48,865 nt of DNA from Nanoarchaeota archaeon SCGC AAA011-G17 (GTDB lineage: Archaea > Nanobdellota > Nanobdellia > SCGC-AAA011-G17), in the NCBI GenBank assembly GCA_000402515.1, contig AQRL01000033.1, forward strand, positions 1-48,865. The letters are read 5' to 3'. Positions within the stretch are counted from its first letter, which is position 1, and each line of letters starts with the position of its first letter. Below, one piece after another: positions 1 to 48,374 of the stretch. The position numbers and the translations under genes are program-made. The notes beneath the pieces were generated by a model. That model saw only the letters and a list, made by a program, of their open reading frames with translations. It was not told the origin of the DNA and did not search any database.

Positions 1-210
1 TTGCTTATTGCATCCTGAAATAGACATGACAAGCAACAAGGCTGAAAGAATATTAAGAGAGCCAGTAGTGCAGAGGAAGATAAGCTCTTTATGGAATGAG
101 AAAGGAGTAATGATTAAGGAGACAATCATGTCTGTATTAGCAACATGGAATTTGAGGGGGCTCAATACCAACAGCATGCTTAGGGAAACCCTAAGCAGCT
201 AAACGGTTAC
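1..210 (+). mobile_element. Right end of an IS66-family-like insertion sequence, truncated by the window edge
   Basis: A transposase C-terminal frame runs in from the window start. The element ends ...AGCTAAACGGTTAC at 197-210, the exact reverse complement of GTAACCGTTTAGCT at 48722-48735. A GTAA terminus is typical of IS66-family inverted repeats. Confidence 0.6.
2..202 (+). CDS. Transposase, C-terminal fragment (IS66 TnpC-like), 5'-partial
   Basis: The frame is open to the window edge. The motif TSNKAERILREPVVQRKISS resembles the TNNxAERxLRxxVxxRK block of IS66-type transposases. The stop codon lies inside the terminal inverted repeat. Confidence 0.55.
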   Translation, partial: CLLHPEIDMTSNKAERILREPVVQRKISSLWNEKGVMIKETIMSVLATWNLRGLNTNSMLRETLSS

Positions 211-2586
211 GTTAATTCTATTTTGAATCTGTTAAAAGAGATTTCTGCATGAAGTGTTGCTTTTAGGTCTTCTAATGCTGTTTTTAATAATAATTTATCT
301 TCTATATCCAATGTTAATTTTATTTCTTTTTTTAAAGAGACATTTTTCTCTGCCTTGAATTTTCTTACTTGTTTTACTATTTCTACAAACCTGTCTCCTA
401 TTTTCTCTGCATTCTTGTCAACAATAATTTCTTTAGGCCAGGCAGAGATATGGATGCTTTTCTTATTCTCCTTCTTTGCGTAATATGACTGATAGATTTC
501 CTCTGTTATGTGGGGCATTATCGGAGCCATGAGCTTAAGGGTATTTAATAGAACATGATAAAGAGTATACTGCGCTGATAATTTTGCCTCTTTTCCTCTC
601 TTATCTGGATTGTATAGTCTGTCCTTGATTATTTCCAGGTAATTGTCACAAAAGTCATGCCAAAAAAAATTATCAATTAATTTTGTTGAATCCCCTATTT
701 TATAGTGCATCATTAAATCTGTAGATTTTTTTATTAAATGAGATAGCTTTGTTAAAATCCATAAGTCAATCTCTTCTAACTTTTTTGGTTTTTCCAATGG
801 GTAATTTTCCAGATGCATTAGTGCAAATTTAGATGCATTCCATAGTTTTGTTTGAAATTTAGTTCCTGTTACTAAATCTTTTTCCTGGAATGGAAGGTCT
901 TCTCCAAAGGTTGCTGTACCAACCCAGTATCTTATAACATCAACATTGAATTTTTCAAGCAAGTCTTCTGTCCAGATAGCATTCCCCTTTGATTTATGCA
1001 TACCACGACCTTTTGAGTCGAGAACAAATGTACCCAAAGCGATATCTTTCCAGGGTATTTGTTTAAAATGCAGGTATGATTTTAAAATTGTATAAAATGC
1101 CCAAGTCCTTATAATATCATGTGCCTGTGGTCTTAAAGACATTGGAAACATTTTTTTAAAACTCTGCGGTTTTTCCAACCAACGCGTTGCTATCTGTGGA
1201 CTCATACTAGATGTCATCCAAGTGTCAAATACATCCTGATCTGGTATGAATTCTGAGGAACCACATTTACATTTTTTCTTTGGTTGCTGAGAGGTAGGAT
1301 CAATTGGAAGCTCTTTTTTATCAGGCAGAATTATTTTTTTGCATTTTTTACAGTACCATACTGGGATAGGAACACCAAAAAATCTCTGACGAGAGATACA
1401 CCAATCCCATGCCAAGTTCTTAACCCAATCATTATACCTTACCAGATAAAATTCTGGATACCATTTTATTTTCTTTGCCTGTTCTATCAGCTGTTTTTTA
1501 TATTTTAAAGTTTTAATAAACCATTGTGGCGTTACTATGAATTCTACTGGAGTTGAGCATCTCCAACAAGAGCCAACAGTCTGCTCTAAATCCAATTGTG
1601 ATTTTAATCTGTTTTCTTTTTTCAAATCTTGAAGAATTTCTTCTCTTGCTTCTTCTATATTTAATCCATTATATTTTCCTGCATTTCTTAATTTTCCTTG
1701 CTCTGTTAGACATACTTTTAAAGGCAATTTATGTTTTTTCCACCATTCAATATCGGTTGTATCACCAAAGGTACAAATCATAACAATCCCTGTTCCAAAT
1801 TCTCTGTCTACTTTTTCGTCCTTCATTATTGGAACTTTTTGGTTAAACAACGGGACAATTGCTTTTTTCCCAACCAAATTTTTGTATCTCTTATCATCTG
1901 GATGAACAAAAATACCAACACATGCAGATAAAAATTCTGGGCGTGTTGTTGCAATTGTTATTTTTTTACCGTCTTCCAGATCAAAAAGGATTTCATTTAT
2001 CTTTGTAGTTCTCTTTAAATCCTGTACTTCTGCCTGAGCAAGAGCTGTCTGATGATAGGTGCACCAAATTGTCGGCTCTTCTGCTCTATAACAATCTCCT
2101 TTCTCTATTAAATCAAGAAAAGACATTTGGGCGACCTTTTGCGCCTTTTGACCTATTGTTGTGTATAATAAACTCCAATCATAAGAATGCCCCAATGCTC
2201 TAAATACTCTGTCTGCATATGCTTCTTCTACTTCTTTTGATTCTTTTAGGCAGAGCTTTCTAAATTCTGAGCGTGAGATTGTATTCTTTGTTATTTTCAA
2301 TTTTTCTTCAACATATTTTTCTGTTGGTAATCCATTATTATCAAAACATGGAGCAAAATAAACATTAAAATTATTCATTCTTCTAAACCTAGCAATAATT
2401 TCAAATTGTGTATAATGCAAGGCATGACCTACATGCAAGTGACCTGCTGATGCATATGGGGGGGGGAACATCTATTGAGAAGATAGGTTTTTTAGAATTT
2501 ATGTCAAATTTGTAGATTTTGTGCTTTTCCCAGTATTCCTGCCATTTCTTTTCTACTTCAACTGGATTGTAATTTTGTGATAACAT
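207..2586 (-). CDS. valS: Valyl-tRNA synthetase, frame interrupted by one extra base in a C9 tract
   Basis: Class Ia aaRS motifs are present: PPPYASAGHLHVGH (HIGH), TTRPE, DWCISRQR and GMHKSKGN (KMSKS). At ~790 aa the size fits ValRS. The N-terminal 60 aa (ORF 2401-2586, ...IFSIDVPPP) join YASAGHLHVGH only if the G9 run at 2458-2466 (+ strand) is read as 8. Confidence 0.85.
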
Positions 2587-2674: not shown

Positions 2675-3352
2675 GTGTTATATTGTAATATGAAATTAAT
2701 AAATTATGACATATACAAATTATCAGAACTAATAGGAATAATAATAGGAGACGGGAATATTTATTATAACCCACAACTAAAAAAGTATTATTTTGAAATT
2801 ACTGGTGACCCAAATTTAGAAAAAGAATATTTTCACCATATTTCTGATTTAATTTTTGATTTATTAAATAAAAAACCAAATATAAGAAAAGGAGGAAGAG
2901 GACTTAGATTAAGATTATATTCAAAAAATTTTGTAGAATTCTTAATTAATATCGTAAAATTGCCTTATGGAGAAGGAAAATGTGAAGTTGTAACTATACC
3001 TGACTGTATATATTCACAAAATTGGGATATAATTAAAAAATGTATAAGGGGCATTACAGATACAGATGGCTCTTTATTCTTATCAAAAAAATACCATAGA
3101 AATGATTATCCTTGTGTAGAGATTAGTACAGTTAGTGAATCTCTAGCTTTTCAACTTAAGGGAATATTGTCCCCACATTATAGGTTAGGTTTTAGGAGTT
3201 TCTCTGCAAAGAATTCCAGAAAAAGATATATTATTTCAATAAATGGAGATATTATGGTAAATAAATGGATTAATGATATTGGTTTTTCTAATCCACATAA
3301 AGGAAGGAAAGCTTATGATATTTTAAAAATGAATGGGACTGGAGGGATTTGA
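2675..3352 (+). CDS. LAGLIDADG-family homing endonuclease, double-motif and free-standing
   Basis: Two LAGLIDADG-type motifs are present: LIGIIIGDGNI and IRGITDTDGSL. The likely true start is the ATG at 2690. The last 19 nt overlap the 3' end of tRNA-Phe on the opposite strand. Confidence 0.8.
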   Translation: MLYCNMKLINYDIYKLSELIGIIIGDGNIYYNPQLKKYYFEITGDPNLEKEYFHHISDLIFDLLNKKPNIRKGGRGLRLRLYSKNFVEFLINIVKLPYGEGKCEVVTIPDCIYSQNWDIIKKCIRGITDTDGSLFLSKKYHRNDYPCVEISTVSESLAFQLKGILSPHYRLGFRSFSAKNSRKRYIISINGDIMVNKWINDIGFSNPHKGRKAYDILKMNGTGGI

Positions 3353-6889: not shown

Positions 6890-7315
6890 ATGGTAACTGT
6901 ATATGATGTTAATCCTAACAGCCTCATTAACAAGGCTGCTGAAGAACTAAAAAAAATAGATAGCATAAAGGCACCAGCATGGGTTAGTTTTGCTAAGACT
7001 GGTGTACAGAAAGAAAGACCCAGTACTGAAAAGGATTTCTGGTATAAAAGGTGCGCTTCTGTATTAAGAAAAATTTACATTTACGGGCCAATTGGGGTCA
7101 GCAAATTAAGAGTTAAGTATGGTGGCAGAAAAAATAGGGGAACAAAACCAGATGCATTTAGAAAAGCTGGCGGAAATATAATAAGAAAAGTCCTACAGCA
7201 ATTAGAAAAGAATGAATTAATAAGACAGGCAGAAGTAGGGGTGCATAAAGGAAGAGTAATAACACCCAAGGGAAAGAAATTTTTGGATAGTACTGCTAAG
7301 AGTTTGAAAAAATGA
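6890..7315 (+). CDS. rps19e: Ribosomal protein eS19 (S19e)
   Basis: VYDVNPNSLINKAAEELKK...APAWVSFAKTG..KERP...DFWYKRCASVLRKIY is typical of S19e. Confidence 0.9.
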   Translation: MVTVYDVNPNSLINKAAEELKKIDSIKAPAWVSFAKTGVQKERPSTEKDFWYKRCASVLRKIYIYGPIGVSKLRVKYGGRKNRGTKPDAFRKAGGNIIRKVLQQLEKNELIRQAEVGVHKGRVITPKGKKFLDSTAKSLKK

Positions 7316-7485
7316 CAAGAAACATTGGTAGCGGAAAAAAAACCAGGTTGATCAAAAAAAACAAGCAGACTAGATGGGCTCCTTTCTGGACAGTACCTAA
7401 AAAATATGGCAAAGGAAAAAAGGTTCATCCCGGAAGACATACAACTGTAAAAAGAAATTGGAGAAAAACCAAAACAAAGGCATGA
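7312..7485 (+). CDS. rpl39e: Ribosomal protein eL39 (L39e), 57 aa; not in the ORF track
   Basis: My own translation gives MTRNIGSGKKTRLIKKNKQTRWAPFWTVPKKYGKGKKVHPGRHTTVKRNWRKTKTKA. There is an ATGA start/stop overlap with rps19e. The position before rpl31e is the conserved one. Confidence 0.8.
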   Translation: MTRNIGSGKKTRLIKKNKQTRWAPFWTVPKKYGKGKKVHPGRHTTVKRNWRKTKTKA

Positions 7486-7489
7486 TAAA

Positions 7490-7963
7490 ATGGCTGAAAA
7501 AATATTTACTATCCCTTTAAGAAAAGAATGGCTGAAGGTCCCTAAATACAGAAGGGCAAAAAAGGCAATAAGTGCTTTAAATATTTATTTGAAGAAACAT
7601 CTGAAGAAAGAAGTAAGGATTGGAAAATATCTGAATTCTAAGGTTTGGGCAAGAGGAAATGAGAATCCCCCTGGAAAGATTAAAGTAAGAATTGAAGAGG
7701 ACAAGGATAATTTAACTGCTGAATTGATTAATGCCCCAAGAGAAGTCAAGAAAGAAAAGAAGAAGGGAAGATTAGAGCAGCTAAAAGAAAAGGTTGTCGG
7801 GGAGAGCAAGGAGAAAAAAGAGCAGAAGGAATTGAGCAAAGAGCTGGGAAAGGAATTACAAAGAGAAGAAGAAATGAAGAGGCATGAAGCTCCCAAGAAA
7901 GAGGATAAAGAAACTATGGGAAGAGAGAGATTAGTTGCAAGAAAAGAAGATATCAAGAAATAA
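7490..7963 (+). CDS. rpl31e: Ribosomal protein eL31 (L31e) with a K/E-rich C-terminal extension
   Basis: FTIPLRKEWLKVPKYRRAKKAI...VRIGKYLNSKVWARG..NPPGKIKVR is the L31e signature. The last ~70 aa are low-complexity K/E. Confidence 0.9.
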   Translation: MAEKIFTIPLRKEWLKVPKYRRAKKAISALNIYLKKHLKKEVRIGKYLNSKVWARGNENPPGKIKVRIEEDKDNLTAELINAPREVKKEKKKGRLEQLKEKVVGESKEKKEQKELSKELGKELQREEEMKRHEAPKKEDKETMGRERLVARKEDIKK

Positions 7964-8017
7964 TTCTAAATATGAAAGGTTTATTAAGGAAAAATTAATG
8001 GTATTATATTAAAGGAT

Positions 8018-9044
8018 ATGGAGGAACATATGGGAAATTTACCCTTTGAAGAGATAAAAAGAAAAATACTTGTAAAAAAGGAAGGCACTACAGATGAAAA
8101 GTATGGATTAAGTCCTGGAAAGAGAGATATTAAAACTCTAATTAATTATGGTGTTGTTGTAATAAACAAACCTGCTGGTCCCACTTCTCATCAAGTAAGC
8201 GCTTATGTAAAAAATATTTTTGGGATAAAACAAGCTGGCCACGGCGGGACTCTAGAGTAAAAATCAGAGAAATCCCAATGTAACTGGTGTTTTGCCTGTT
8301 GCTTTAGGCAGGGCTACAAGGATAGTACAGGGATTATTGAAAGCTGGAAAGGAGTATGTTTGTTTAATGCATATTCACAAGGATGTCAGCGAACAAAGAA
8401 TCAGAGAAGTATTTAATGAGTTCATCGGGAAAATAAAACAAATACCCCCTGTAAGAAGCGCTGTAAAAAGGCAGGAAAGAGAGAGAAATATTTACTATAT
8501 TGAAATATTGGAGATTGATGAAAAAGATGTTCTTTTTAAGATTGGGTGCGAGGCAGGAACATATATCAGAAAAATTTGTGATGACGCGGGAAGAAGATTA
8601 GGAACAGGGGCGCATATGGCTGAATTAATAAGAACAAAGGCAGGACCATTTAGCGAGGACAATTGGTGTTCACTGCATGATTTAAAGGATGCTTATGAAT
8701 TTTATAAAGAGGGAGATGAAGAAGAACTAAAAAAAATAATATTACCAATAGAAAGAGCTGTTGAGCATTTGGGAAAAGTATGGATTTTTGATAATGCAGT
8801 TGATACTGTCTGTCATGGGGCTGATTTGAGCTTGCCAGGAATTTCAAAATTAGAGTCTGATATAAAACAAGGAGAGCTAATAGCTGTTATGACTCTTAAA
8901 GATGAATTAGTTTGTATGGGAGAGGCTTTAAAGAACAGTGAAGAAATGATGGATGAGGAAAAAGGGAAAGCTGTAAAAACAAAAAAAGTGTTTATGGAAA
9001 GAAGTATTTATCCAAAATTTGTTGTGAAGAAAAATGAGTCATAG
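8018..9044 (+). CDS. cbf5: tRNA/rRNA pseudouridine synthase Cbf5 (TruB family), split by a 16-nt BHB intron
   Basis: Exon 1 (8018-8255) ends ...GHGGTL. Exon 2 (8272-9044) continues PNVTGVLPVALGRATR... and includes a C-terminal PUA-like region. Joining G|AU recreates GTLDP, the TruB catalytic Asp motif. The spliced length is 1011 nt (336 aa plus stop). Confidence 0.88.
8256..8271 (+). other. Predicted BHB intron in cbf5 pre-mRNA (16 nt)
   Basis: RNA reads GGGA-CUCU[AGA]GUAAAAAUC-AGAG[AAA]UCCC. The outer helix is GGGA:UCCC (8246-8249 with 8273-8276) and the central helix is CUCU:AGAG (8250-8253 with 8266-8269). The 3-nt bulges are 8254-8256 and 8270-8272. The inner helix is minimal. Confidence 0.75.
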
Positions 9045-24685: not shown

Positions 24686-24993
24686 CAGAAGAATTAAAAG
24701 GGAAAATAGTTTACCTTGGAAAAGGGATAGGAAGAGACTATTATTTAAATTTCAGAGGTGAAAAGAATAAAGTAGATTCTTCTGCCCAAAATTTTGATAG
24801 TATAGAACATGTAGTAGAAGCATTGGCAAATCCTGAAAGAAATGGGATTGATAGTAAATATCTAGGAAAGAGGAGAAAATTCAGTATGATTATTGATGAT
24901 GAGATATCTGATGAAGATTTATCTTATTTAGTGAAAGAAAAAGAAAAACGAAGAATTAAGTTAATGCATTTTGAAAGAGCCAGAGATTTATAA
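24682..24993 (+). CDS. Hypothetical protein
   Basis: ORF with a 4-nt overlap to the upstream gene. Confidence 0.35.
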   Translation: MTEELKGKIVYLGKGIGRDYYLNFRGEKNKVDSSAQNFDSIEHVVEALANPERNGIDSKYLGKRRKFSMIIDDEISDEDLSYLVKEKEKRRIKLMHFERARDL

Positions 24994-25782
24994 ATTATAG
25001 CATTCTTCTCTCAAAGAACAGGCATTGCACTTATTTTTATTTTCCAGTATTCCAGGAGGGTTATCTGCATTCAGAATTTCTTTTATTTCCGTTATTGTAT
25101 TTCTAACTTCAATTTCTGAGAAAGGGTTTAGGATTATTTTCCTGTTTTCATTTGTTTTTATGAAATGAATAAATCCGTGGGTTACTGTCTTGCCCATATT
25201 TTCTTTTGCAAGAAGCATGTAAGAGATTAATTGGATTTTCTGCCCTGGCCAGACTCCATCTCTTGGAGGAGTTCCTGTTTTTAATTCATATGGGATTAGT
25301 GAGCCTTCTGTTAATTCCAATCTGTCTATTATTCCCTTTAATTCTAATCTTTCTGAGTATAGTTTTATTTCTGTAAGGTATTTTGGGGTTAATTTTTCCC
25401 AGAGCTCTTTTCCATAAATATTATTTTTTTGTATAAATGAGAGCACATTGCCTGCCCTTAGCTCTGCCTCTTCCTGAAATCTCGGCCATATATCATGAAA
25501 TACATCTAGTGATTTAAGAGAAAACTCCTTTAGATTGGATTCCTTTAAAATTGATTTTAGTAATGTAAAATAGGTTTTGCTGTATAATTCTTTTATATTT
25601 GTAGATTCTGTTATTGAAGAGACTATTGATTCATCCAATTTGTTTATCTTATCAAACATTGCATGATTTATTGAGCCAAGAAGAAGGATTTCTGATGGGG
25701 GCTCTGGAAACTCCAAGACTTGCTGAAGATATAATTTTCTTGGGCAATACAAATAAGTGGATAGATCTGTTACAGAGAACAT
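24988..25782 (-). CDS. Cas4-family PD-(D/E)xK nuclease (DUF83-like), not CRISPR-associated here
   Basis: N-terminal YLYCPRK Cys, a C-terminal CNACSLREEC cluster, and an EL-K nuclease core (IPYELKTG). Confidence 0.65.
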   Translation of the reverse strand: MFSVTDLSTYLYCPRKLYLQQVLEFPEPPSEILLLGSINHAMFDKINKLDESIVSSITESTNIKELYSKTYFTLLKSILKESNLKEFSLKSLDVFHDIWPRFQEEAELRAGNVLSFIQKNNIYGKELWEKLTPKYLTEIKLYSERLELKGIIDRLELTEGSLIPYELKTGTPPRDGVWPGQKIQLISYMLLAKENMGKTVTHGFIHFIKTNENRKIILNPFSEIEVRNTITEIKEILNADNPPGILENKNKCNACSLREECYNL

Positions 25783-25845: not shown

Positions 25846-27306
25846 TTATTTCTTTCCTTTTATTTTAGATAATGCGTATCTTACTGGATTTTTGAACCTT
25901 AATTCTTCTTGAGAAACCTGAACACCCATATCTGCATAATAGGCCTTATTATCATAGTTTGGCGGCGGAAGGACTTCTTTCTGCCTTTTCTGATACGATA
26001 ATTGTGATTTGATATAACCCCATTTTAATTGGGGCTCATTCTTTTCATTCCATTCTTTTAGAATTTTTTCTATGCTATCTAAATCCCAGCCAGCACACCT
26101 CAAAAAGTTTATTAAAATAAAGACTGCTCTTTTCTTTCCATCTTTTAATCCTTTAAGAATATAATTTATTGATGGCGGGAAATCTTTTTCAGGCAGTGCT
26201 GTTGATGGTATCTTGAAGTCTTTTTTTGGCTCTTCTTCTATTGTTATTGATGGCGAATGATCATATGCCTGAATTAATAATCCTTTTGCTTCTCCTGGTT
26301 GTGGTTTTTTGAAAAAGGATGTTACTTCAGATATGTTCTCAATCTTTGCCTGTTTTTTTTCAAATTCCAGTATTTTATCCGGGTCTATTGGAACAGATAT
26401 TAACCCTGATTTTTCATGATGAGAGTATGGAGCACGGTATAAATGCCGTGAAGATATCAATAAGGTGTCTATATCCATTAAGGCATTCATATCAAACTTT
26501 TCTATATATTCTGCTGAATTGCAGTATTTGCATTTGAAATCCTTTGTCTTGGGTTTTGTCATTAATTTCTTGCATTTTGGGCATGTTTTGTATTTTGTTA
26601 TAAAATTTTCCTTTAGTGTGAAATTGCAGTTTGGACAGATAAATTCAGTTTCTGTAATTATTTTTTCCCCTTGTTTTTGACATCTTTTACACATCACTTT
26701 AATTGCTGATTTTCCTTTTTCGGTAAAATATCTTATCAGCTCCCTTTCGGTTATATTCTGCAGAATGTAATTTGATAACTCGTAATCTGTTTTTTCTGAG
26801 TCTATATAATCCATTAGATATTGGGTTATTCTTTTTGGTGCTTCTGGAAATAAATCTGTTATTTTCTGATTGTTTATTGTTTTTGGAAAGGCTTCAAATG
26901 GGACTGAGATATGCAGACCTTTATTCCCTGAAAATTTACAGCCTATTGCTTTAACTCCATGCGCTTTTAGTGCTTTGATTATTAAAAATGCGATATATTT
27001 TGCATAATCCCAGAATTTGCAGTCAATATCTATTATCAAGTCCCAGCCGATTCTTAGTTCATCCAATTGCTTCTGAGACATTCCTGATTTTAACTTTAGG
27101 GGGTTTGACCAATGCTCTTCTGACAGATGAAAAGATGTTGCTCCTGATTTTATAAACTCAATAATATCATTTGGGAATTCCAAGGTATCCGGTCTCTTGC
27201 CAAAATTGTCTCCTGAGCGTATAGAGAACTCTTTATTTTTTGCACAATTAAATATCTCTTCCTGGATATCCTTTCTTGAGTAAAATTTCAAAAGCTCATT
27301 CTTCAT
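25846..27306 (-). CDS. priS: DNA primase, AEP catalytic PriS domain fused to a C-terminal helical PriL/PriX-like domain
   Basis: DLIIDIDC and SGNKGLHISVP catalytic motifs, an internal multi-CxxC zinc module, and a ~120-aa helical C-terminal domain. Confidence 0.7.
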   Translation of the reverse strand: MKNELLKFYSRKDIQEEIFNCAKNKEFSIRSGDNFGKRPDTLEFPNDIIEFIKSGATSFHLSEEHWSNPLKLKSGMSQKQLDELRIGWDLIIDIDCKFWDYAKYIAFLIIKALKAHGVKAIGCKFSGNKGLHISVPFEAFPKTINNQKITDLFPEAPKRITQYLMDYIDSEKTDYELSNYILQNITERELIRYFTEKGKSAIKVMCKRCQKQGEKIITETEFICPNCNFTLKENFITKYKTCPKCKKLMTKPKTKDFKCKYCNSAEYIEKFDMNALMDIDTLLISSRHLYRAPYSHHEKSGLISVPIDPDKILEFEKKQAKIENISEVTSFFKKPQPGEAKGLLIQAYDHSPSITIEEEPKKDFKIPSTALPEKDFPPSINYILKGLKDGKKRAVFILINFLRCAGWDLDSIEKILKEWNEKNEPQLKWGYIKSQLSYQKRQKEVLPPPNYDNKAYYADMGVQVSQEELRFKNPVRYALSKIKGKK

Positions 27307-27388: not shown

Positions 27389-28414
27389 TTAGAAGAGGTT
27401 AGAAGTACAAATTTTTTTTATAACTTCTTTTCTTAATTTATAACTATCGGCCCATTTTGCATAAGCATCCCAACCTTGAAAAATTTCAAACAGCTTTTCT
27501 TTAGAAACTTCATTTTTCTTGTATCTATCAAAAACAAATAACATTTTTCTAATATTCCTTTTTCTTAATAGCCTATAATGATAAAAATTCCTAAATCCAA
27601 CAAAATCTATTCCTCTAGACAAAGAGCTTATCTTTGACTTTTCAGGATGAAGCTCAATTTTTAATTTCTCTTTCAGAAATTTGTCAATTTCAGATTTCCA
27701 GAATTCAAGCTGTGACTTTGACTTATGAAGAATTACAAAATCATCAACATATCTAATATAATATTTAGCCTTTAGTTTATGTTTTACAAAATAATCTAAT
27801 TCATTAAGGTAAACATTAGCAAAAAATTGTGAAGTTAGATTTCCCAAAGGCATCCCTGTTCCTTTATTTTTAGAATCAAAATTATTTAATATTAATTTGA
27901 TAAGAGAGATTACTTCTTTATCTTTTATTTTTCTTCTGATAATATTTATCAAAATTTCATGAGAAACAGTTTCAAAATAATGCCTAATATCTGCTTTAAG
28001 GCAGAATGCGTTTGATTTAAAATTATTTGTTACTTTTCTTTTAAAATAATCAAATCGTTTAATTGCAAATAAATTTCCTTTCCCTATTCTATTTGCACAT
28101 GAATCATAAATAAATCCCCTGTCAAAAATTGGTTCAATTATTCTTATTAAATCATGATGAACAATTCTATCCCTAAAATCAGACTTGCTTATCTTTCTAG
28201 TTTTAGGATCTCGCAAAATAAAAGTTTTTAGAGGCAATGGGTTGTAGGTATGATTCTTTAATTCTTCAGATAGTTTAAGCAAATTTACTAAAGTATCTTT
28301 TTCAAATTCAATTACATAATATTTACTTGTTTTGTGTTTTCTAGCTTTTCTCCAAGCTAAAAGTAAATTACTAAGATTATAAATTTCCTGATAAAGTTCA
28401 TTATTAGTTTCCAT
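27389..28414 (-). CDS. DGR reverse transcriptase (DGR-1)
   Basis: RT motifs include LGNLTSQ (the DGR-type [I/L]GxxxSQ) and YIRYVDDFVI (YxDD). TR lies 29 nt upstream. The protein is paralogous to 46221-47324. Confidence 0.9.
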   Translation of the reverse strand: METNNELYQEIYNLSNLLLAWRKARKHKTSKYYVIEFEKDTLVNLLKLSEELKNHTYNPLPLKTFILRDPKTRKISKSDFRDRIVHHDLIRIIEPIFDRGFIYDSCANRIGKGNLFAIKRFDYFKRKVTNNFKSNAFCLKADIRHYFETVSHEILINIIRRKIKDKEVISLIKLILNNFDSKNKGTGMPLGNLTSQFFANVYLNELDYFVKHKLKAKYYIRYVDDFVILHKSKSQLEFWKSEIDKFLKEKLKIELHPEKSKISSLSRGIDFVGFRNFYHYRLLRKRNIRKMLFVFDRYKKNEVSKEKLFEIFQGWDAYAKWADSYKLRKEVIKKICTSNLF

Positions 28415-28443
28415 ATTAGTATAAGAAATCCTGACTTTTGGGC

Positions 28444-28524
28444 TATTCCACGAACCCTGTCGTCGTAGTACAAGTCCCTATTGTTACCATCAAGATCAGA
28501 ACTGTTGTCAAGGCTCCTAAACCA
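28444..28524 (-). repeat. DGR-1 template repeat (TR1)
   Basis: 81 nt aligns without gaps to 28857-28937 at an offset of 413. There are 12 mismatches, all where TR has T on the + strand, i.e. A on the coding strand. Confidence 0.9.
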
Positions 28525-28724
28525 CAGGGAACTTATAGCCAGAATACCATCACAAAAGATTAACTCTTGCCACTGAAGCTTCACGAATGTTGCTTCTGTA
28601 TTTCATGACTTAAAATCAAATTAATGATGTACTAGTAAACTGGCATGTAGTCCAACTTATACTTCACTGATAGTATATCTATATAGTCAGGACATAACTT
28701 TAGAAATAATCTATTTTAAAATAA

Positions 28725-29453
28725 TTATTGTCTTAAACCATCTAGTAGAATCTTTTCAATTCCAGTTAGACCTTTTGTTTTTAGAACTTTTAAGATTTGT
28801 TTTGGAGTGTAAACTTCAGAATTTTTTTTCGTGCCTTCGACACTAACACTATCACGTACCCCACGAACCCTGACGACGCAGTACAAGACCCTACTGTTAC
28901 CACCAAGAACAGAACTGTAGACAAGGCACCTAAACCATATTTGTCTTGCAAAGGATTTTTCCTGCATATCTGCTAACAAAACAGCCATTTCTTTGATTCC
29001 TGCTTCTTCTCTTAAGAATTGCCCGTATTTTTCAGCATTTTCGCCAAAAGCATAAACAGTTATTTCATTATCTTTAAATCTGTTTGTAGGGATTTCTTTT
29101 GATTCTAGGTTGACTGAATCTGCTAATCCTTCCTCAATCTGCTCATCAGTTAAATAAAACTCTTGACCTTTTCTATGACAATCTGTAGCTTCTTTTGCAT
29201 TTGCCATTATTGGTGAATTCTTTGTTAAAAATCTACCTTTATTAAGAATATATAAAACCCCTTCTCTTGTCCAGTTTCCATTTCTAGAGACATAGGCATC
29301 TTTACCTTCCTGTATTCTTAATCTTGCATTTTCTTCTAAAGAAATAATTTTATAGCCATCTTTAACTAATACTTTTTTTCCTTCATCAAAGGGTGCCTCT
29401 GCATAAGCTGATTCTATTCCTCTTGGTTTTACATCAATACTAACTTTTACCAT
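28725..29453 (-). CDS. DGR-1 variable (target) protein, 242 aa, no signal peptide
   Basis: VR encodes aa 173-199 (WFRCLVYSSVLGGNSRVLYCVVRVRGV), against the TR-encoded WFRSLDNSSDLDGNNRDLYYDDRVRGI. A 43-aa conserved tail follows VR. Confidence 0.85.
   Translation of the reverse strand: MVKVSIDVKPRGIESAYAEAPFDEGKKVLVKDGYKIISLEENARLRIQEGKDAYVSRNGNWTREGVLYILNKGRFLTKNSPIMANAKEATDCHRKGQEFYLTDEQIEEGLADSVNLESKEIPTNRFKDNEITVYAFGENAEKYGQFLREEAGIKEMAVLLADMQEKSFARQIWFRCLVYSSVLGGNSRVLYCVVRVRGVRDSVSVEGTKKNSEVYTPKQILKVLKTKGLTGIEKILLDGLRQ
28857..28937 (-). repeat. DGR-1 variable repeat (VR1)
   Basis: See TR1. A-site-only divergence, in frame inside the target gene. Confidence 0.9.
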
Positions 29454-46220: not shown

Positions 46221-47324
46221 TTAAATTTTTGTTTCTCTTAATAATCTATTCACTTCTATTGATGAAATCTGATTAGAAAACATATACTCAAAATCTTTAG
46301 TGAACTGCTTTCTTAATTTATAAGTATCTGCATGCTTAGCATAAGCAATCCATCCTTCAAAACTTGCATAAATTTTATCATAATCAATCTTCCTTTCATT
46401 TAATTTGTATTTTGTTAATTTATTTCTCATCTTTTTTATATTTCTTTTATTTAATAACTTATGATAATAAAATACCCTGAAGCCCAATAAACTAATTCCT
46501 TTGCTTAATAAAATTATTTTGGATTTATCTGGATGCAATTCTAAGTTTATTGTTTTTAAAAAGGCACCAATCTTATTTTTATAATCAAATAATACCCCAT
46601 AATTATTATGAATTATCACAAAATCATCTACATATCTAATATAATATTTTGCCTTTAATTTATGTTTTACAAAATAGTCTAATTCATTAAGATAAACATT
46701 AGCAAAGAACTGGGAAGTTAGATTTCCCAATGGCATTCCTATCCCTTTATTTTTGGAATTAAAATTATCTAGTATTAATTTAATAAGCAATATTATTTTT
46801 TCATCTTTTATTTTTCTTTTAATAATCTCAATTAAAACTTTGTGAAAAACAGTATCAAAATAGTGCTTAATATCTGCCTTTAAAATATAAGCTTCCCTTG
46901 TATTATTCTTAGTAACTTTCCTTTTAAAATAATCAAATCTTTCCAATGCCTTAAATGCCCCCTTAAATTTTCTATTTGCATACGAATCAAAGATAAATAT
47001 TTTTTCAAATATTGGTTCAATAATATTACACAAAACATGGTGAATAATTCTGTCTTTAAAATCAGACTTGCTTATTTTTCTGGTCTTTGGATCCCTAAGG
47101 ATGAAGGTTTCCAAAGGTTTTGGCCTATAAGAATGAAACATAATTTCTGACCTTAATTGAAGCAGATTTTCCTTAAGATTCTTCTCAAACTCAACAACAT
47201 AATCTTTTTTTGTCTTATTTTTTCTTGCTTTTTTATATGCTAGTTTAATATTTTCATAACTACATAGAGAAATCCATAAATTAGTGTAAGTATGCATTTG
47301 ATTATTAAATGCCTTGGCAAACAC
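46221..47324 (-). CDS. DGR reverse transcriptase (DGR-2)
   Basis: GMPLGNLTSQFFANVYLNELDYFVKHKLKAKYYIRYVDDFVI is identical to the DGR-1 RT over this stretch. By alignment to RT-1 the likely true start is the ATG at 47297, which leaves a 32-nt TR-RT spacer. Confidence 0.9.
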   Translation of the reverse strand: MFAKAFNNQMHTYTNLWISLCSYENIKLAYKKARKNKTKKDYVVEFEKNLKENLLQLRSEIMFHSYRPKPLETFILRDPKTRKISKSDFKDRIIHHVLCNIIEPIFEKIFIFDSYANRKFKGAFKALERFDYFKRKVTKNNTREAYILKADIKHYFDTVFHKVLIEIIKRKIKDEKIILLIKLILDNFNSKNKGIGMPLGNLTSQFFANVYLNELDYFVKHKLKAKYYIRYVDDFVIIHNNYGVLFDYKNKIGAFLKTINLELHPDKSKIILLSKGISLLGFRVFYYHKLLNKRNIKKMRNKLTKYKLNERKIDYDKIYASFEGWIAYAKHADTYKLRKQFTKDFEYMFSNQISSIEVNRLLRETKI

Positions 47325-47329
47325 AGGAT

Positions 47330-47416
47330 TATTCCAACAAAACGAGCATTGTTGTTGATGTTGTTGTTACCATTAAGACCATTGTTGCAGTTGTCGCCAA
47401 CGAACAGCAAACGCCC
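47330..47416 (-). repeat. DGR-2 template repeat (TR2)
   Basis: 87 nt aligns without gaps to 47748-47834 at an offset of 418. There are 10 mismatches, all at TR T on the + strand (coding-strand A). TR encodes the AAY-rich GRLLFVGDNCNNGLNGNNNINNNARFVGI. Confidence 0.92.
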
Positions 47417-47606
47417 GCTATATAGCCTGCTTATCCTTAATTGCAATGCTGTTTCATCTGTTCAATATTTACTAAGTGTCACAGCTGTATTTTATAACCA
47501 TTAAATGGCCATGATAAACAGGCGTGTAGCCCTGAGATATCTAACTATCACAAATCAAGTTAAATAATACCAAGACAAAGTAAAAAAGAGAAAGAAGTTT
47601 AAAAAT

Positions 47607-48374
47607 TTATTTGTATAATGCTTTTATTTTATTTTCATATTCTTTTCTAGTTGCTTTTGGAACAAAATTTTTTGAAACCTTCAAAATTTGCTCTATAGTC
47701 GGTGCTGAAATTTTTTGCGCAGTGCCTTCGGCACTAGCACTACCACGTACCCCAACAAAACGAGCATAGTTGCCGATGCCGTAGTTACCAATAAGACCAT
47801 TGTTGCAGTAGTCGCCAACGAACAGCAAACGCCCTAATGGCTCATCTTTTAAATCATCACAATGCCAGATTCCTATATTATTTCCATAAACCTGTTTAAA
47901 TTTTTCAAGATATCTTTGGGCTCTTTCCTCTCCGCCAATAAAAGGGATAGTTTGGGGATGCTCCAATGCTCTTTCAACTGGAATTACTCCTGAACTTGAA
48001 CTTTTAAGCTTATCATAATCAATAACAAAAACATTCTTATTATCCCCTAAATCCAATAATCTCTGAAATTCATCTACCGGCATAACTCCTGCACCGTTTA
48101 TTCTCTCTGCATTTCTTATATTTTCAGGATTAGAAAGATAATTATCAACATGGACATATACAACTACTGGGTTTCCCTGCTTGGTTCTTCCTGTTGCCCT
48201 TATGCTTGGTGCAGTAAGCCAGTTGCTTAATAAGCTTGAACCTTTAGTTGCTAAAATTTTTGCGTCTATCAGTTCAGGCATGAATAAAGCATGACCGTAT
48301 TTCTGACAGCTTTCTAAGGCTGTAGCCATATCACTATTATAAAACTCTTTTGCTTGCTTTCTGTTTATTTCCAT
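47607..48374 (-). CDS. DGR-2 variable (target) protein, 255 aa, no signal peptide
   Basis: VR encodes aa 181-209 (GRLLFVGDYCNNGLIGNYGIGNYARFVGV). The 46-aa tail is conserved with target 1 (...EGT...P..ILKV.K...). Confidence 0.85.
   Translation of the reverse strand: MEINRKQAKEFYNSDMATALESCQKYGHALFMPELIDAKILATKGSSLLSNWLTAPSIRATGRTKQGNPVVVYVHVDNYLSNPENIRNAERINGAGVMPVDEFQRLLDLGDNKNVFVIDYDKLKSSSSGVIPVERALEHPQTIPFIGGEERAQRYLEKFKQVYGNNIGIWHCDDLKDEPLGRLLFVGDYCNNGLIGNYGIGNYARFVGVRGSASAEGTAQKISAPTIEQILKVSKNFVPKATRKEYENKIKALYK
47748..47834 (-). repeat. DGR-2 variable repeat (VR2)
   Basis: See TR2. Confidence 0.92.

What the first reader, a model, noticed from the sequence alone, without database searches (positions are those of the whole stretch)
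8246..8276. 16-nt bulge-helix-bulge intron in the protein-coding cbf5 gene; splicing rebuilds the catalytic Asp codon
cbf5 appears split into ORFs 8018-8260 and 8292-9044 in different frames, and the TruB catalytic motif GTLDP is missing. The RNA at the break folds as GGGA-CUCU[AGA]G...C-AGAG[AAA]UCCC. That is an outer 4-bp helix, a central 4-bp helix and two 3-nt bulges on opposite strands, which is exactly the substrate geometry of the archaeal tRNA-splicing endonuclease. Cutting after the second nucleotide of each bulge removes 8256-8271 and joins CUA G|AU CCC, giving L-D-P. This restores ...GHGGTLDPNVTGVLPVALG... and a 1011-nt in-frame CDS. Protein-coding BHB introns are very rare. The known precedent is cbf5 itself in Crenarchaeota (Watanabe et al. 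2002; Yokobori et al. 2009), so an occurrence in a DPANN-like genome bears on gain, loss or transfer of this intron.
Basis: partly seen in the sequence, partly recalled or inferred. Interest (0 to 1): 0.8.

Follow-up and report, generated by a model that had tools for sequence, protein, structure and literature searches.

The report
Spliced mini-intron in DPANN cbf5 gene
A 16-base insert splits the essential RNA-modifying gene cbf5 of a tiny groundwater (DPANN) archaeon at its catalytic codon and has the shape cut by the tRNA-splicing enzyme; this intron was known only from hot-spring Crenarchaeota, but it sits at the same nucleotide here and in many other uncultured lineages.

Summary
cbf5 is broken at 8255/8256. 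Removing 8256-8271 rebuilds GHGGTL-D-PNVTG and a full-length Cbf5 (NF003280, 451 bits).

- **Structure:** the RNA has a 4-bp outer helix, a 4-bp central helix and a 3-nt 3' bulge. The 5' cut site lies in a loose bulge or loop, so this is a relaxed BHB.
- **Not an artefact or pseudogene:** an independent groundwater contig (93% aa identity, dS 0.69, dN/dS 0.06) carries the identical 16 nt.
- **Other lineages:** ten more lineages have 14-35-nt inserts at the same nucleotide. These are Woesearchaeota/Nanoarchaeota-like, three Bathyarchaeia-like, and one unplaced.
- **Covariation:** the central helix covaries as CUCU/AGAG, CACU/AGUG, CGUU/AACG and CCUU/AAGG.
- **Site:** it is the one reported for the crenarchaeal cbf5 intron, between letters 1 and 2 of the catalytic Asp codon.
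- **Distribution:** it is patchy. Every intron-bearing gene has a closer intronless relative, which implies at least about 9 gains or losses.

Splicing itself is not shown. No transcript data were available and the window holds no endonuclease gene. Papers I could search place this intron only in Crenarchaeota. Verdict: a real BHB mRNA intron, a new member of a known kind with a much wider and patchier distribution.

The parts
8020..8024 (+). GGAGG Shine-Dalgarno-like element 5 nt upstream of ATG 8030, the likely true start of cbf5
   Evidence: Sequence. The database gene call P0121 and the orthologues start at MGNL/MGKL/MDKL. The upstream ATG 8018 is not conserved in L001.
8030..8255 (+). cbf5 exon 1. 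It encodes the DKCLD domain through GHGGTL plus the first letter (G) of the catalytic Asp codon.
   Evidence: profile positions 2-67 of NF003280. dN/dS is 0.10 against L001.
8246..8249 (+). 5' strand of the outer helix (GGGA), exonic; pairs with 8273-8276
   Evidence: Folds. The pairs are kept in 47 of 48 cells across 12 sequences. Gly is GGG in 12 of 12 intron-bearing genes and GGA or GGT in 3 of 3 intronless loci.
8250..8253 (+). 5' strand of the 4-bp central helix (CUCU: Thr codon positions 2-3 plus Leu codon positions 1-2); pairs with 8266-8269
   Evidence: 100% paired in 12 sequences. Two pairs show compensatory changes (UA7/CG3/AU1/GC1 and CG8/UA4), and 0 of 500 shuffles reach the observed score.
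8254..8256 (+). 5' bulge A-G|A; predicted 5' splice site between 8255 and 8256
   Evidence: Geometry. This is the same cut rule as in PMC2738675. The MFE fold of this window pairs G8255-C8265 and A8256-U8264 instead, which is the relaxed form.
8256..8271 (+). 16-nt BHB intron AGUAAAAAUCAGAGAA. An in-frame UAA lies at 8258-8260, one codon after the splice site.
   Evidence: The intron is identical in L001 (93% aa identity) and L018 (57% aa identity). It is single copy in the window.
8266..8269 (+). 3' strand of the central helix (AGAG), intronic
   Evidence: covariation with 8250-8253.
8270..8272 (+). 3' bulge A-A|A; predicted 3' splice site between 8271 and 8272
   Evidence: The 3-nt bulge is present in every MFE fold. 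It reads AA|A in 11 of 12 sequences and AU|A in L021.
8273..8276 (+). 3' strand of the outer helix (UCCC: Asp codon position 3 plus the Pro codon), exonic
8272..9044 (+). cbf5 exon 2. It runs from letters 2-3 of the Asp codon through the TruB catalytic core and PUA domain to the stop codon.
   Evidence: profile positions 74-322. dN/dS is 0.05 against L001. The alignment to P. abyssi Cbf5 (2aus_C) crosses the junction without a gap.

Best explanation
The 16 nt at 8256-8271 are an archaeal bulge-helix-bulge (BHB) intron inside the cbf5 mRNA.

In the transcript, exon bases GGGACUCU (codons Gly-Thr-Leu) pair with intron AGAG and with exon UCCC (Asp3-Pro). This gives a 4-bp outer helix and a 4-bp central helix. 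A 3-nt bulge (AA|A) lies on the 3' strand. The 5' cut site (AG|A) lies in a loose bulge or loop on the other strand.

The tRNA-splicing endonuclease (EndA) cuts after the second nucleotide of each bulge. An RtcB-type ligase then joins ...CUA G to AU CCC.... This recreates the catalytic Asp codon and a 332-aa Cbf5.

Unspliced mRNA can only yield a 76-aa stub, because a UAA follows the splice site at once. Production of active Cbf5 therefore depends on splicing. A down-regulating role, as proposed for Crenarchaeota, is possible.

Shown here: the split, the exact restoration, the structure and its covariation, purifying selection on both exons and on the intron, and identity of the site with the crenarchaeal intron. 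Inferred: cleavage by EndA, ligation, and any regulatory role.
For: 1. Removing 8256-8271 restores GHGGTLDPNVTG and a full Cbf5. The product scores 451 bits on the NF003280 equivalog in one stretch, and the fragments leave profile positions 68-73 uncovered. It aligns without a gap to solved Cbf5 structures across the junction.
2. The helix, bulge and helix are in the MFE fold, with z = -2.6 for the 37-nt core.
3. L001, an independent assembly from Hainich groundwater, has the identical 16 nt. Its exons differ at dS 0.69 with dN/dS 0.06, so the gene is functional. There are 0 changes in 16 intron bases, where about 0.55^16 = 7e-5 would be expected if those bases were neutral.
4. Eleven distinct lineages (12 sequences) carry a 14-35-nt insert at the same nucleotide. 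In all of them the spliced ORF is full length.
5. Covariation: the Thr wobble base U/A/G/C is matched by intron A/U/C/G. 99% of cells pair, against 28-54% when the partners are slid by 1-3 columns. None of 500 shuffles reaches the observed value.
6. Several relatives fold as canonical hBHBh' with two 3-nt bulges: L005, L015, L017, L021.
7. The site and cut rule equal those of the experimentally studied crenarchaeal cbf5 intron, whose size range is 16-44 bp (PMC2738675).
8. DPANN lineages are reported to encode EndA variants with an extra loop (L3) that are associated with disrupted tRNA genes (PMC5829648).
Against: - There is no transcript evidence. None of 8 predicted spliced products is present as an exact sequence among about 15 billion predicted proteins.
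- No EndA or RtcB gene was found among the 40 window ORFs scanned, so the enzyme type of this organism is unknown.
- In this window the 5' bulge is not a clean 3-nt bulge. The inner helix is at most 1-2 bp, so a strict-specificity endonuclease might not cut it.
- The bare BHB geometry occurs at chance frequency in the window.
Confidence: 0.88

Rival explanations
1. Assembly or sequencing artefact: the 16 nt are a spurious insertion and the real gene is uninterrupted.
For: Only the general fact that the contig comes from a metagenome. No spliced or intronless identical allele was found to compare with.
Against: - The identical insert is in L001, from a different study and assembler, with 12% nucleotide divergence in the flanks. 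It is also in L018.
- The P0145 lineage carries its insert in contigs from 75 blocks of the collection, including NCBI, ENA and JGI records.
- The inserts covary with the exon bases.
Confidence: 0.01
2. Pseudogene: cbf5 was inactivated by a 16-nt insertion, and this reduced genome no longer makes Cbf5.
For: DPANN genomes lose many genes. The catalytic Asp codon is destroyed in the DNA.
Against: - dN/dS is 0.06 across both exons at dS 0.69, with no further disruptions.
- The insert is conserved unchanged.
- The same interruption is maintained with compensatory changes in 11 lineages, and all of them have intact exons.
Confidence: 0.03
3. A genuinely split gene: the 76-aa DKCLD fragment and the 250-aa C-terminal fragment are translated separately and assemble, as in the split genes of Nanoarchaeum. 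Alternatively, the ribosome bypasses the 16 nt.
For: Two ORFs exist, and gene callers annotate them separately. The N-fragment is deposited as 'hypothetical protein' in Woesearchaeota records.
Against: - Neither fragment contains the catalytic Asp or the DPNVTG motif. Profile positions 68-73 are missing.
- The first possible start of the downstream ORF is a TTG inside the conserved core, with no ribosome-binding site.
- This model does not explain why intron bases covary with exon bases to keep a BHB.
Confidence: 0.03
4. The intron is real, but the evolutionary reading differs from simple vertical inheritance from Crenarchaeota. It was either gained independently many times at a predisposed site, or moved horizontally between lineages, rather than being one ancient intron.
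For: - Each intron-bearing Cbf5 has a closer intronless relative (for the window, 79%) than any other intron-bearing lineage (65% or less). NJ plus Fitch parsimony needs at least 9 state changes.
- The window and L018 share an identical intron at only 57% protein identity.
- Bathyarchaeia-like and DPANN introns share the ends AG...CAGAGAA.
- The codons GGN-ACN-YUN-GAY-CCN already supply most of the outer helix.
Against: - An ancient intron with many losses explains the same pattern. Reverse transcriptases are present, and RT-mediated loss was proposed in PMC2738675.
- The tree is a crude NJ tree on a biased sample.
- The shared intron ends are also what the BHB and the fixed exon sequence demand.
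Confidence: 0.5

Closest known systems
cbf5 pre-mRNA BHB intron of Crenarchaeota (Desulfurococcales and Sulfolobales; Watanabe et al. 2002, Yoshinari et al. 2006, Yokobori et al. 2009, PMC2738675)
   Same: - Same host gene.
- Same insertion point, between letters 1 and 2 of the catalytic Asp codon.
- Same cut rule, after the second bulge nucleotide.
- Same size class (16-44 bp there; 16 nt here and 14-35 nt in relatives).
- Mostly relaxed BHB motifs in both.
- Patchy presence, with inferred secondary losses.
   Different: - The host is a DPANN (Nanoarchaeota/Woesearchaeota-like) mesophilic groundwater organism with 32% GC, not a hyperthermophilic crenarchaeon.
- Close relatives at 71-79% identity lack the intron.
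- The endonuclease is probably not the crenarchaeal (alpha-beta)2 type with the crenarchaea-specific loop.
- Splicing is not demonstrated here.
- Direct sequence comparison with crenarchaeal introns could not be made.
Archaeal tRNA/rRNA BHB introns cut by EndA (canonical hBHBh' and relaxed HBh'/hBH/BHL forms)
   Same: A 4-bp central helix is flanked by bulges on opposite strands. The intron content between the helices is free to vary. The relaxed form has the 5' site in a loop. tRNA introns span a similar short size range (11-175 nt, PMC2738675).
   Different: It lies in a protein-coding frame. Half of the motif is built from constrained codons. It must compete with translating ribosomes.
HVO_1309 5'-UTR BHB intron of Haloferax volcanii (PMC7714728)
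   Same: It is an mRNA substrate of the archaeal splicing endonuclease outside tRNA and rRNA.
   Different: It lies in a 5' UTR, not in the coding sequence. It is a different gene and does not rebuild a codon.

Membership tests
Archaeal BHB intron (substrate of splicing endonuclease EndA) | 4-bp central helix flanked by two bulges on opposite strands, with an outer helix | tested here: met
   GGGA/UCCC and CUCU/AGAG with the 3-nt AAA bulge are in the MFE fold. 99% of cells pair across 12 sequences.
Archaeal BHB intron (substrate of splicing endonuclease EndA) | Canonical form: a clean 3-nt 5' bulge closed by an inner helix h' | tested here: not met
   In the window the inner helix is a single G-C pair, or the MFE alternative of a 1-nt bulge plus 2 bp, so this is the relaxed (BHL-like) class. 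The feature is met in relatives L005 (5 bp), L021 (6 bp), L015 and L017.
Archaeal BHB intron (substrate of splicing endonuclease EndA) | Cutting after the 2nd nucleotide of each bulge gives a functional mature RNA | tested here: met
   The join CUA G|AU CCC restores the Asp codon and a full-length ORF here and in all 11 other sequences.
Archaeal BHB intron (substrate of splicing endonuclease EndA) | Helices supported by compensatory substitutions | tested here: met
   Two central-helix pairs have double-sided changes in 9 cells. None of 500 shuffles reaches this, and slid controls pair in 28-54% of cells.
Archaeal BHB intron (substrate of splicing endonuclease EndA) | Excision and exon ligation observed in RNA, or cleavage by EndA in vitro | not testable with these tools
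   No transcript data were available. The exact look-up of spliced products was negative.
Archaeal BHB intron (substrate of splicing endonuclease EndA) | Genome encodes EndA (broad-specificity type for relaxed motifs) and RtcB | tested here: inconclusive
   There were no EndA or RtcB Pfam hits among 40 window ORFs, but the window is only 49 kb. The literature reports loop-bearing EndA in DPANN (PMC5829648).
Crenarchaeal-type cbf5 mRNA intron | Host gene is cbf5 | tested here: met
   NF003280 at 451.5 bits (cut-off 242) and TIGR00425 at 421 bits. Best PDB match is P. abyssi Cbf5 at 4.5e-119.
Crenarchaeal-type cbf5 mRNA intron | Inserted between the first and second letter of the catalytic Asp codon | tested here: met
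   G|AT at 8255/8272, compared with the statement in PMC2738675.
Crenarchaeal-type cbf5 mRNA intron | Short size (16-44 bp), no ORF | tested here: met
   16 nt here and 14-35 nt in relatives. The range comes from PMC2738675.
Crenarchaeal-type cbf5 mRNA intron | Host belongs to Desulfurococcales or Sulfolobales (the distribution described so far) | tested here: not met
   The best named relatives are Nanoarchaeota/Woesearchaeota. One relative is archaeon GW2011_AR18 / Ca. Woesearchaeota. Other carriers are nearest to Bathyarchaeia.
Crenarchaeal-type cbf5 mRNA intron | Sequence-level homology of the intron to crenarchaeal cbf5 introns | not tested
There is only indirect evidence: G+C-rich fragment tails reading ...GEIP... 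imply the same ...GAGAA|AUCCC junction.

The most novel reading that the evidence does not exclude
The cbf5 Asp-codon intron is not a crenarchaeal curiosity. It is a recurrent or mobile BHB element that has entered, or been exchanged at, this one nucleotide in at least three deep archaeal groups: DPANN, Bathyarchaeia-like Thermoproteota, and Sulfolobales/Desulfurococcales.

Two mechanisms could produce this. One is reverse splicing or RT-mediated copying into a site whose codons (GGN-ACN-YUN-GAY-CCN) pre-form the outer helix. The other is selection that keeps the intron as a splicing-dependent throttle on Cbf5 synthesis.

Supporting points are the identical 16-nt intron in hosts only 57% identical in protein, and the shared intron ends across phyla. 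An ancient intron with many losses is not excluded.
Probability: 0.3. Interest if true: 0.9.

Novelty: new member of a known kind. Interest (0 to 1): 0.72.

Why it matters
Introns in archaeal protein-coding genes are counted on one hand. [quoted passage not shown]

- **Evolutionary account:** the same intron sits at the same nucleotide in many DPANN and Bathyarchaeia-like lineages, interleaved with intronless relatives. This overturns the single-gain picture.
- **A testable question:** why this one codon? The result provides a natural series of minimal (14-35 nt) mRNA substrates for DPANN splicing endonucleases.
- **Annotation:** current pipelines mis-annotate these genes as a 'hypothetical protein' plus a truncated Cbf5, for example KHO54548.1 and J4476_02710. 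Cbf5 may therefore be wrongly scored as defective in DPANN genome surveys.

Tried and rejected
- **Collection scans for close relatives:** scans of genome contigs and metagenome contigs gave only one distant intronless locus each (Methanobrevibacter at 51%, and L004 at 62%). They were useful only as intronless controls.
- **Exact look-up of eight predicted spliced proteins:** the aim was to catch assembled spliced transcripts or intronless alleles. None was found.
- **Other BHB introns in the window:** the geometry is at chance level. Nine other 'ORF-restoring' candidates are A/U-only helices without homology support, and I rejected them as chance.
- **Rfam at permissive threshold and terminator/promoter scans around the site:** nothing was found, so no alternative RNA element explains the hairpin.
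- **Copies of the intron elsewhere:** there are none in the window or in viral contigs, so this gives no sign of a multi-copy mobile element.
- **tRNA scan:** the window has no tRNAs, so tRNA intron types could not be used to infer endonuclease specificity.
- **EndA/RtcB among window ORFs:** none was found.
- **Literature:** no paper in the library combines cbf5, intron and DPANN.
- **Crenarchaeal intron sequences:** they could not be retrieved. The figures are not held and the look-ups were exhausted.

Full report
**Observation**

The window has two adjacent + strand ORFs in different frames, 8018-8260 and 8292-9044. The first ends ...AGHGGTLE*. The second starts inside the conserved TruB core at ...PVALG. 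The sequence 8246-8276 is GGGACTCTAGAGTAAAAATCAGAGAAATCCC.

Deleting 8256-8271 gives an open frame reading ...GHGGTLDPNVTGVLPVALG.... The spliced product matches the NCBIfam Cbf5 equivalog NF003280 at 451.5 bits (cut-off 242) in a single stretch covering positions 2-322 of 323. The two fragments cover only 2-67 and 74-322, so the catalytic LDPNVT segment is exactly what is missing. The product aligns without a gap across the junction to Pyrococcus abyssi Cbf5 (2aus_C, E = 4.5e-119).

- The probable start is ATG 8030. GGAGG lies at 8020-8024, and the orthologues and the database call P0121 begin at MGNL. The spliced CDS is then 999 nt rather than 1011 nt.
- A8256 equals A8272, so the junction is ambiguous by one base. 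The mRNA is the same in either register.

**Structure**

The minimum-free-energy fold of the local RNA contains the 8 contiguous 5' strand bases GGGACUCU. They pair with AGAG and UCCC across a 3-nt AAA bulge (z = -2.6 for the 37-nt core).

On the 5' side the MFE fold chooses a 1-nt bulge plus G-C and A-U pairs. In this window the motif is therefore a relaxed BHB, close to a bulge-helix-loop.

The bare geometry is not special. I counted 546 such arrangements on the + strand, against 515-562 in shuffled sequence. The case rests on position, conservation and covariation.

**Not an artefact and not a pseudogene**

The protein search with the spliced product found mostly intact 325-335-aa Cbf5 proteins named Nanoarchaeota or Woesearchaeota. 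It also found one 251-aa fragment at 93% identity (P0006). Its contig (L001, Hainich groundwater, ENA ERZ1292627) has the same split and the identical 16 nt.

Between the window and L001 the exons differ at dS = 0.69 with dN/dS = 0.06 (exon 1: 0.10; exon 2: 0.05). The intron shows 0 differences in 16 bases. At the synonymous difference rate of 0.45, sixteen unchanged neutral sites would have a probability of about 7e-5. Both exons and the intron are therefore under purifying selection.

**Many more carriers**

Searching the 80-aa N-terminal ORF returned 36 proteins. Of these, 28 are 64-99-aa DKCLD-only fragments that stop within a few residues after GH[GS]GTL, followed by E or V. In other words, they break after the first letter G of the Asp codon. 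One of them is deposited as 'hypothetical protein' of Ca. Woesearchaeota and of archaeon GW2011_AR18, and occurs in contigs from 75 blocks of the collection.

From the DNA of these lineages I recovered the inserts below.

| Locus | Exon 1 end | Intron | Exon 2 start | Length (nt) |
|---|---|---|---|---|
| window, L001, L018 | GGGACUCUAG | AGUAAAAAUCAGAGAA | AUCCC | 16 |
| L011 | GGGACUCUAG | AGUAAAUUCAGAGAA | AUCCA | 15 |
| L019 | GGGACUCUAG | AGAUCUAAUUUCAGAGAA | AUCCC | 18 |
| L017 | GGGACUCUAG | AGGCUUAAACCAGAGAA | AUCCC | 17 |
| L015 | GGGACUCUAG | starts AGGCC, ends AACCAGAGAA | AUCCC | 29 |
| L005 (AR18 type) | GGGACACUUG | AAAUCUAAUUAGGUUAGUGAA | AUCCC | 21 |
| L009 | GGGACGUUAG | AAAAUAAUUAACGAA | AUCCU | 15 |
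| L013 | GGGACCUUAG | UCUAAAAGAAGGAA | AUCCU | 14 |
| L020 | GGGACCUUAG | ends AAAGGAA | AUCCC | 35 |
| L021 | GGGACCUUAG | ends CAAGGAU | AUCCC | 31 |

Every spliced ORF is a full-length Cbf5.

An exhaustive HMMER search of 1.84 billion cluster representatives with the 76-aa fragment listed the best 150. Of the 149 sequences retrieved from that list, 47 break directly after GH.GTL. Many are G+C-rich, with out-of-frame tails reading ...GEIP.... That corresponds to the same ...GAGAA|AUCCC junction.

**Covariation**

In the 12-sequence alignment A1 the 8 proposed pairs form in 99% of cells. Sliding the partners by 1-3 columns gives 28-54%.

The two variable central-helix pairs change on both sides: UA 7, CG 3, AU 1, GC 1 for one pair, and CG 8, UA 4 for the other. 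None of 500 shuffles reaches the observed values. The variable exon bases are the Thr wobble position and the first Leu position. All four Thr wobble bases occur, and each is matched by its Watson-Crick partner in the intron.

The flanking Gly codon is GGG in 12 of 12 intron-bearing genes and GGA or GGT in the 3 intronless loci for which I hold DNA. Fisher's exact test gives p of about 0.002. This is notable in genomes of roughly 30% GC.

In L005, L015, L017 and L021 the MFE fold is a textbook hBHBh' with two 3-nt bulges and inner helices of 2-6 bp.

**Comparison with the known intron**

Yokobori et al. 2009 (PMC2738675) make four relevant statements:
- The cuts fall between the second and third bulge residues, in mostly unconventional BHB motifs.
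- The introns are 16-44 bp.
- cDNA sequences and endonuclease assays support splicing in those species.

Site, cut rule, size class and relaxed motif are the same here. What differs is the host. The window's Cbf5 is nearest to Nanoarchaeota/Woesearchaeota proteins. L015, L017 and L021 are nearest to Bathyarchaeia proteins at 67-78% identity.

**Distribution**

Every intron-bearing Cbf5 has a closer intronless relative than any other intron-bearing lineage. For the window it is 79% to P0001, against 65% or less to other carriers. For L013 it is 86% to P0052.

A neighbour-joining tree of 168 sequences with Fitch parsimony needs at least 9 gains or losses. This is crude and the sample is biased.

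The window and L018 share an identical intron at only 57% protein identity. DPANN and Bathyarchaeia-like introns share the ends AG...CAGAGAA.

These patterns fit three scenarios, and I cannot separate them:
- an old intron with many losses;
- repeated gain at a site whose codons pre-form the outer helix;
- lateral spread of the intron.

**Mechanism**

What is shown:
- the split and its exact repair;
- the conserved and covarying BHB;
- selection on both exons and on the intron.

What is inferred:
- EndA cuts after G8255 and A8271.
- RtcB ligates the exons.
- The in-frame UAA one codon after the 5' splice site stops ribosomes on unspliced RNA, so Cbf5 output depends on splicing. A negative-regulator role was proposed for Crenarchaeota in PMC2738675.

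A relaxed motif needs a broad-specificity enzyme. Kaneta et al. 2018 (PMC5829648) report loop-bearing (L3) alpha4-type EndAs in several DPANN lineages, associated with disrupted tRNA genes. The window itself has no EndA, RtcB or tRNA gene.

**Negative results and limits**

- None of eight predicted spliced proteins is in the 15-billion-protein collection. There is thus no transcript evidence.
- No crenarchaeal DNA could be fetched, so there is no direct intron-to-intron comparison.
- Collection scans found no additional close relatives.
- No other RNA family, terminator or second intron copy explains the site.

**Novelty**

Five literature searches found no paper that combines cbf5, intron and DPANN. 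[quoted passage not shown] References cited in 2018 and 2025 for archaeal pre-mRNA introns are the same three papers by Watanabe, Yoshinari and Yokobori.

I therefore rate this as a new member of a known kind. Its much wider and patchier distribution reopens the question of how this intron arises.

**In passing**

The window carries two diversity-generating retroelements. Each has an Rfam RT-16 RNA between the target gene and the template repeat. One relative (L009) has both the BHB intron and an intein in cbf5.

Noticed in passing
window 46221-48374 (- strand): A complete diversity-generating retroelement. The parts are the target ORF 47607-48374 with its variable repeat at 47752-47834, an Rfam RT-16 RNA at 47417-47575 (87 bits), the template repeat at 47334-47416, and an RVT_1 reverse transcriptase at 46221-47324. 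All 11 TR/VR differences lie at template adenines. The RT-16 motif sits directly upstream of the template repeat.
   Followed up: partly
window 27389-29453 (- strand): A second diversity-generating retroelement with the same layout. The parts are the target ORF 28725-29453 with its VR at 28861-28937, an RT-16 RNA at 28530-28692 (71.5 bits), the TR at 28448-28524, and the RT at 27389-28414. All 12 differences lie at template adenines. The two RT genes share a 275-nt stretch at 85% identity. A Cas4-like nuclease (24988-25782) and a primase-polymerase-like ORF (25846-27306) lie next to it.
   Followed up: partly
L009 2501-5119 and L010 (P0124 lineage): This cbf5 carries the 15-nt BHB intron at the Asp codon and also an intein with a LAGLIDADG endonuclease domain in exon 2 (760-aa exon-2 product, 867 aa after RNA splicing). 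One gene therefore needs both RNA splicing and protein splicing.
   Followed up: partly
window 2675-3352 (+): A free-standing ORF with weak LAGLIDADG homing-endonuclease matches (E about 2e-4, below the Pfam cut-off). It lies next to a class I aminoacyl-tRNA synthetase gene at 207-2471(-) and is absent from the syntenic intronless relative L002.
   Followed up: no
proteins P0133, P0141, P0142: Three N-terminal Cbf5 fragments break a few residues earlier than the others (GHSG|QPP..., GH|LWQ..., GHS|QLE...). They could be introns at slightly different positions, or frameshift errors.
   Followed up: no
representative proteins such as P0308, P0354, P0392, P0369: G+C-rich Cbf5 N-fragments read through the insert into exon 2 out of frame and repeatedly show ...GEIP.... 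This translates ...GGAGAA|AUCCC. The intron 3' end and junction seen in DPANN therefore seem conserved in quite different, unnamed lineages, possibly the classical crenarchaeal ones.
   Followed up: partly
L005-L008, L013, L018 versus window 6890-9044: The gene order S19e - (small ORFs) - L31e - cbf5 is conserved across DPANN lineages, whether they carry the intron or not. The split cbf5 is therefore the orthologous chromosomal copy, not a transferred extra copy.
   Followed up: partly
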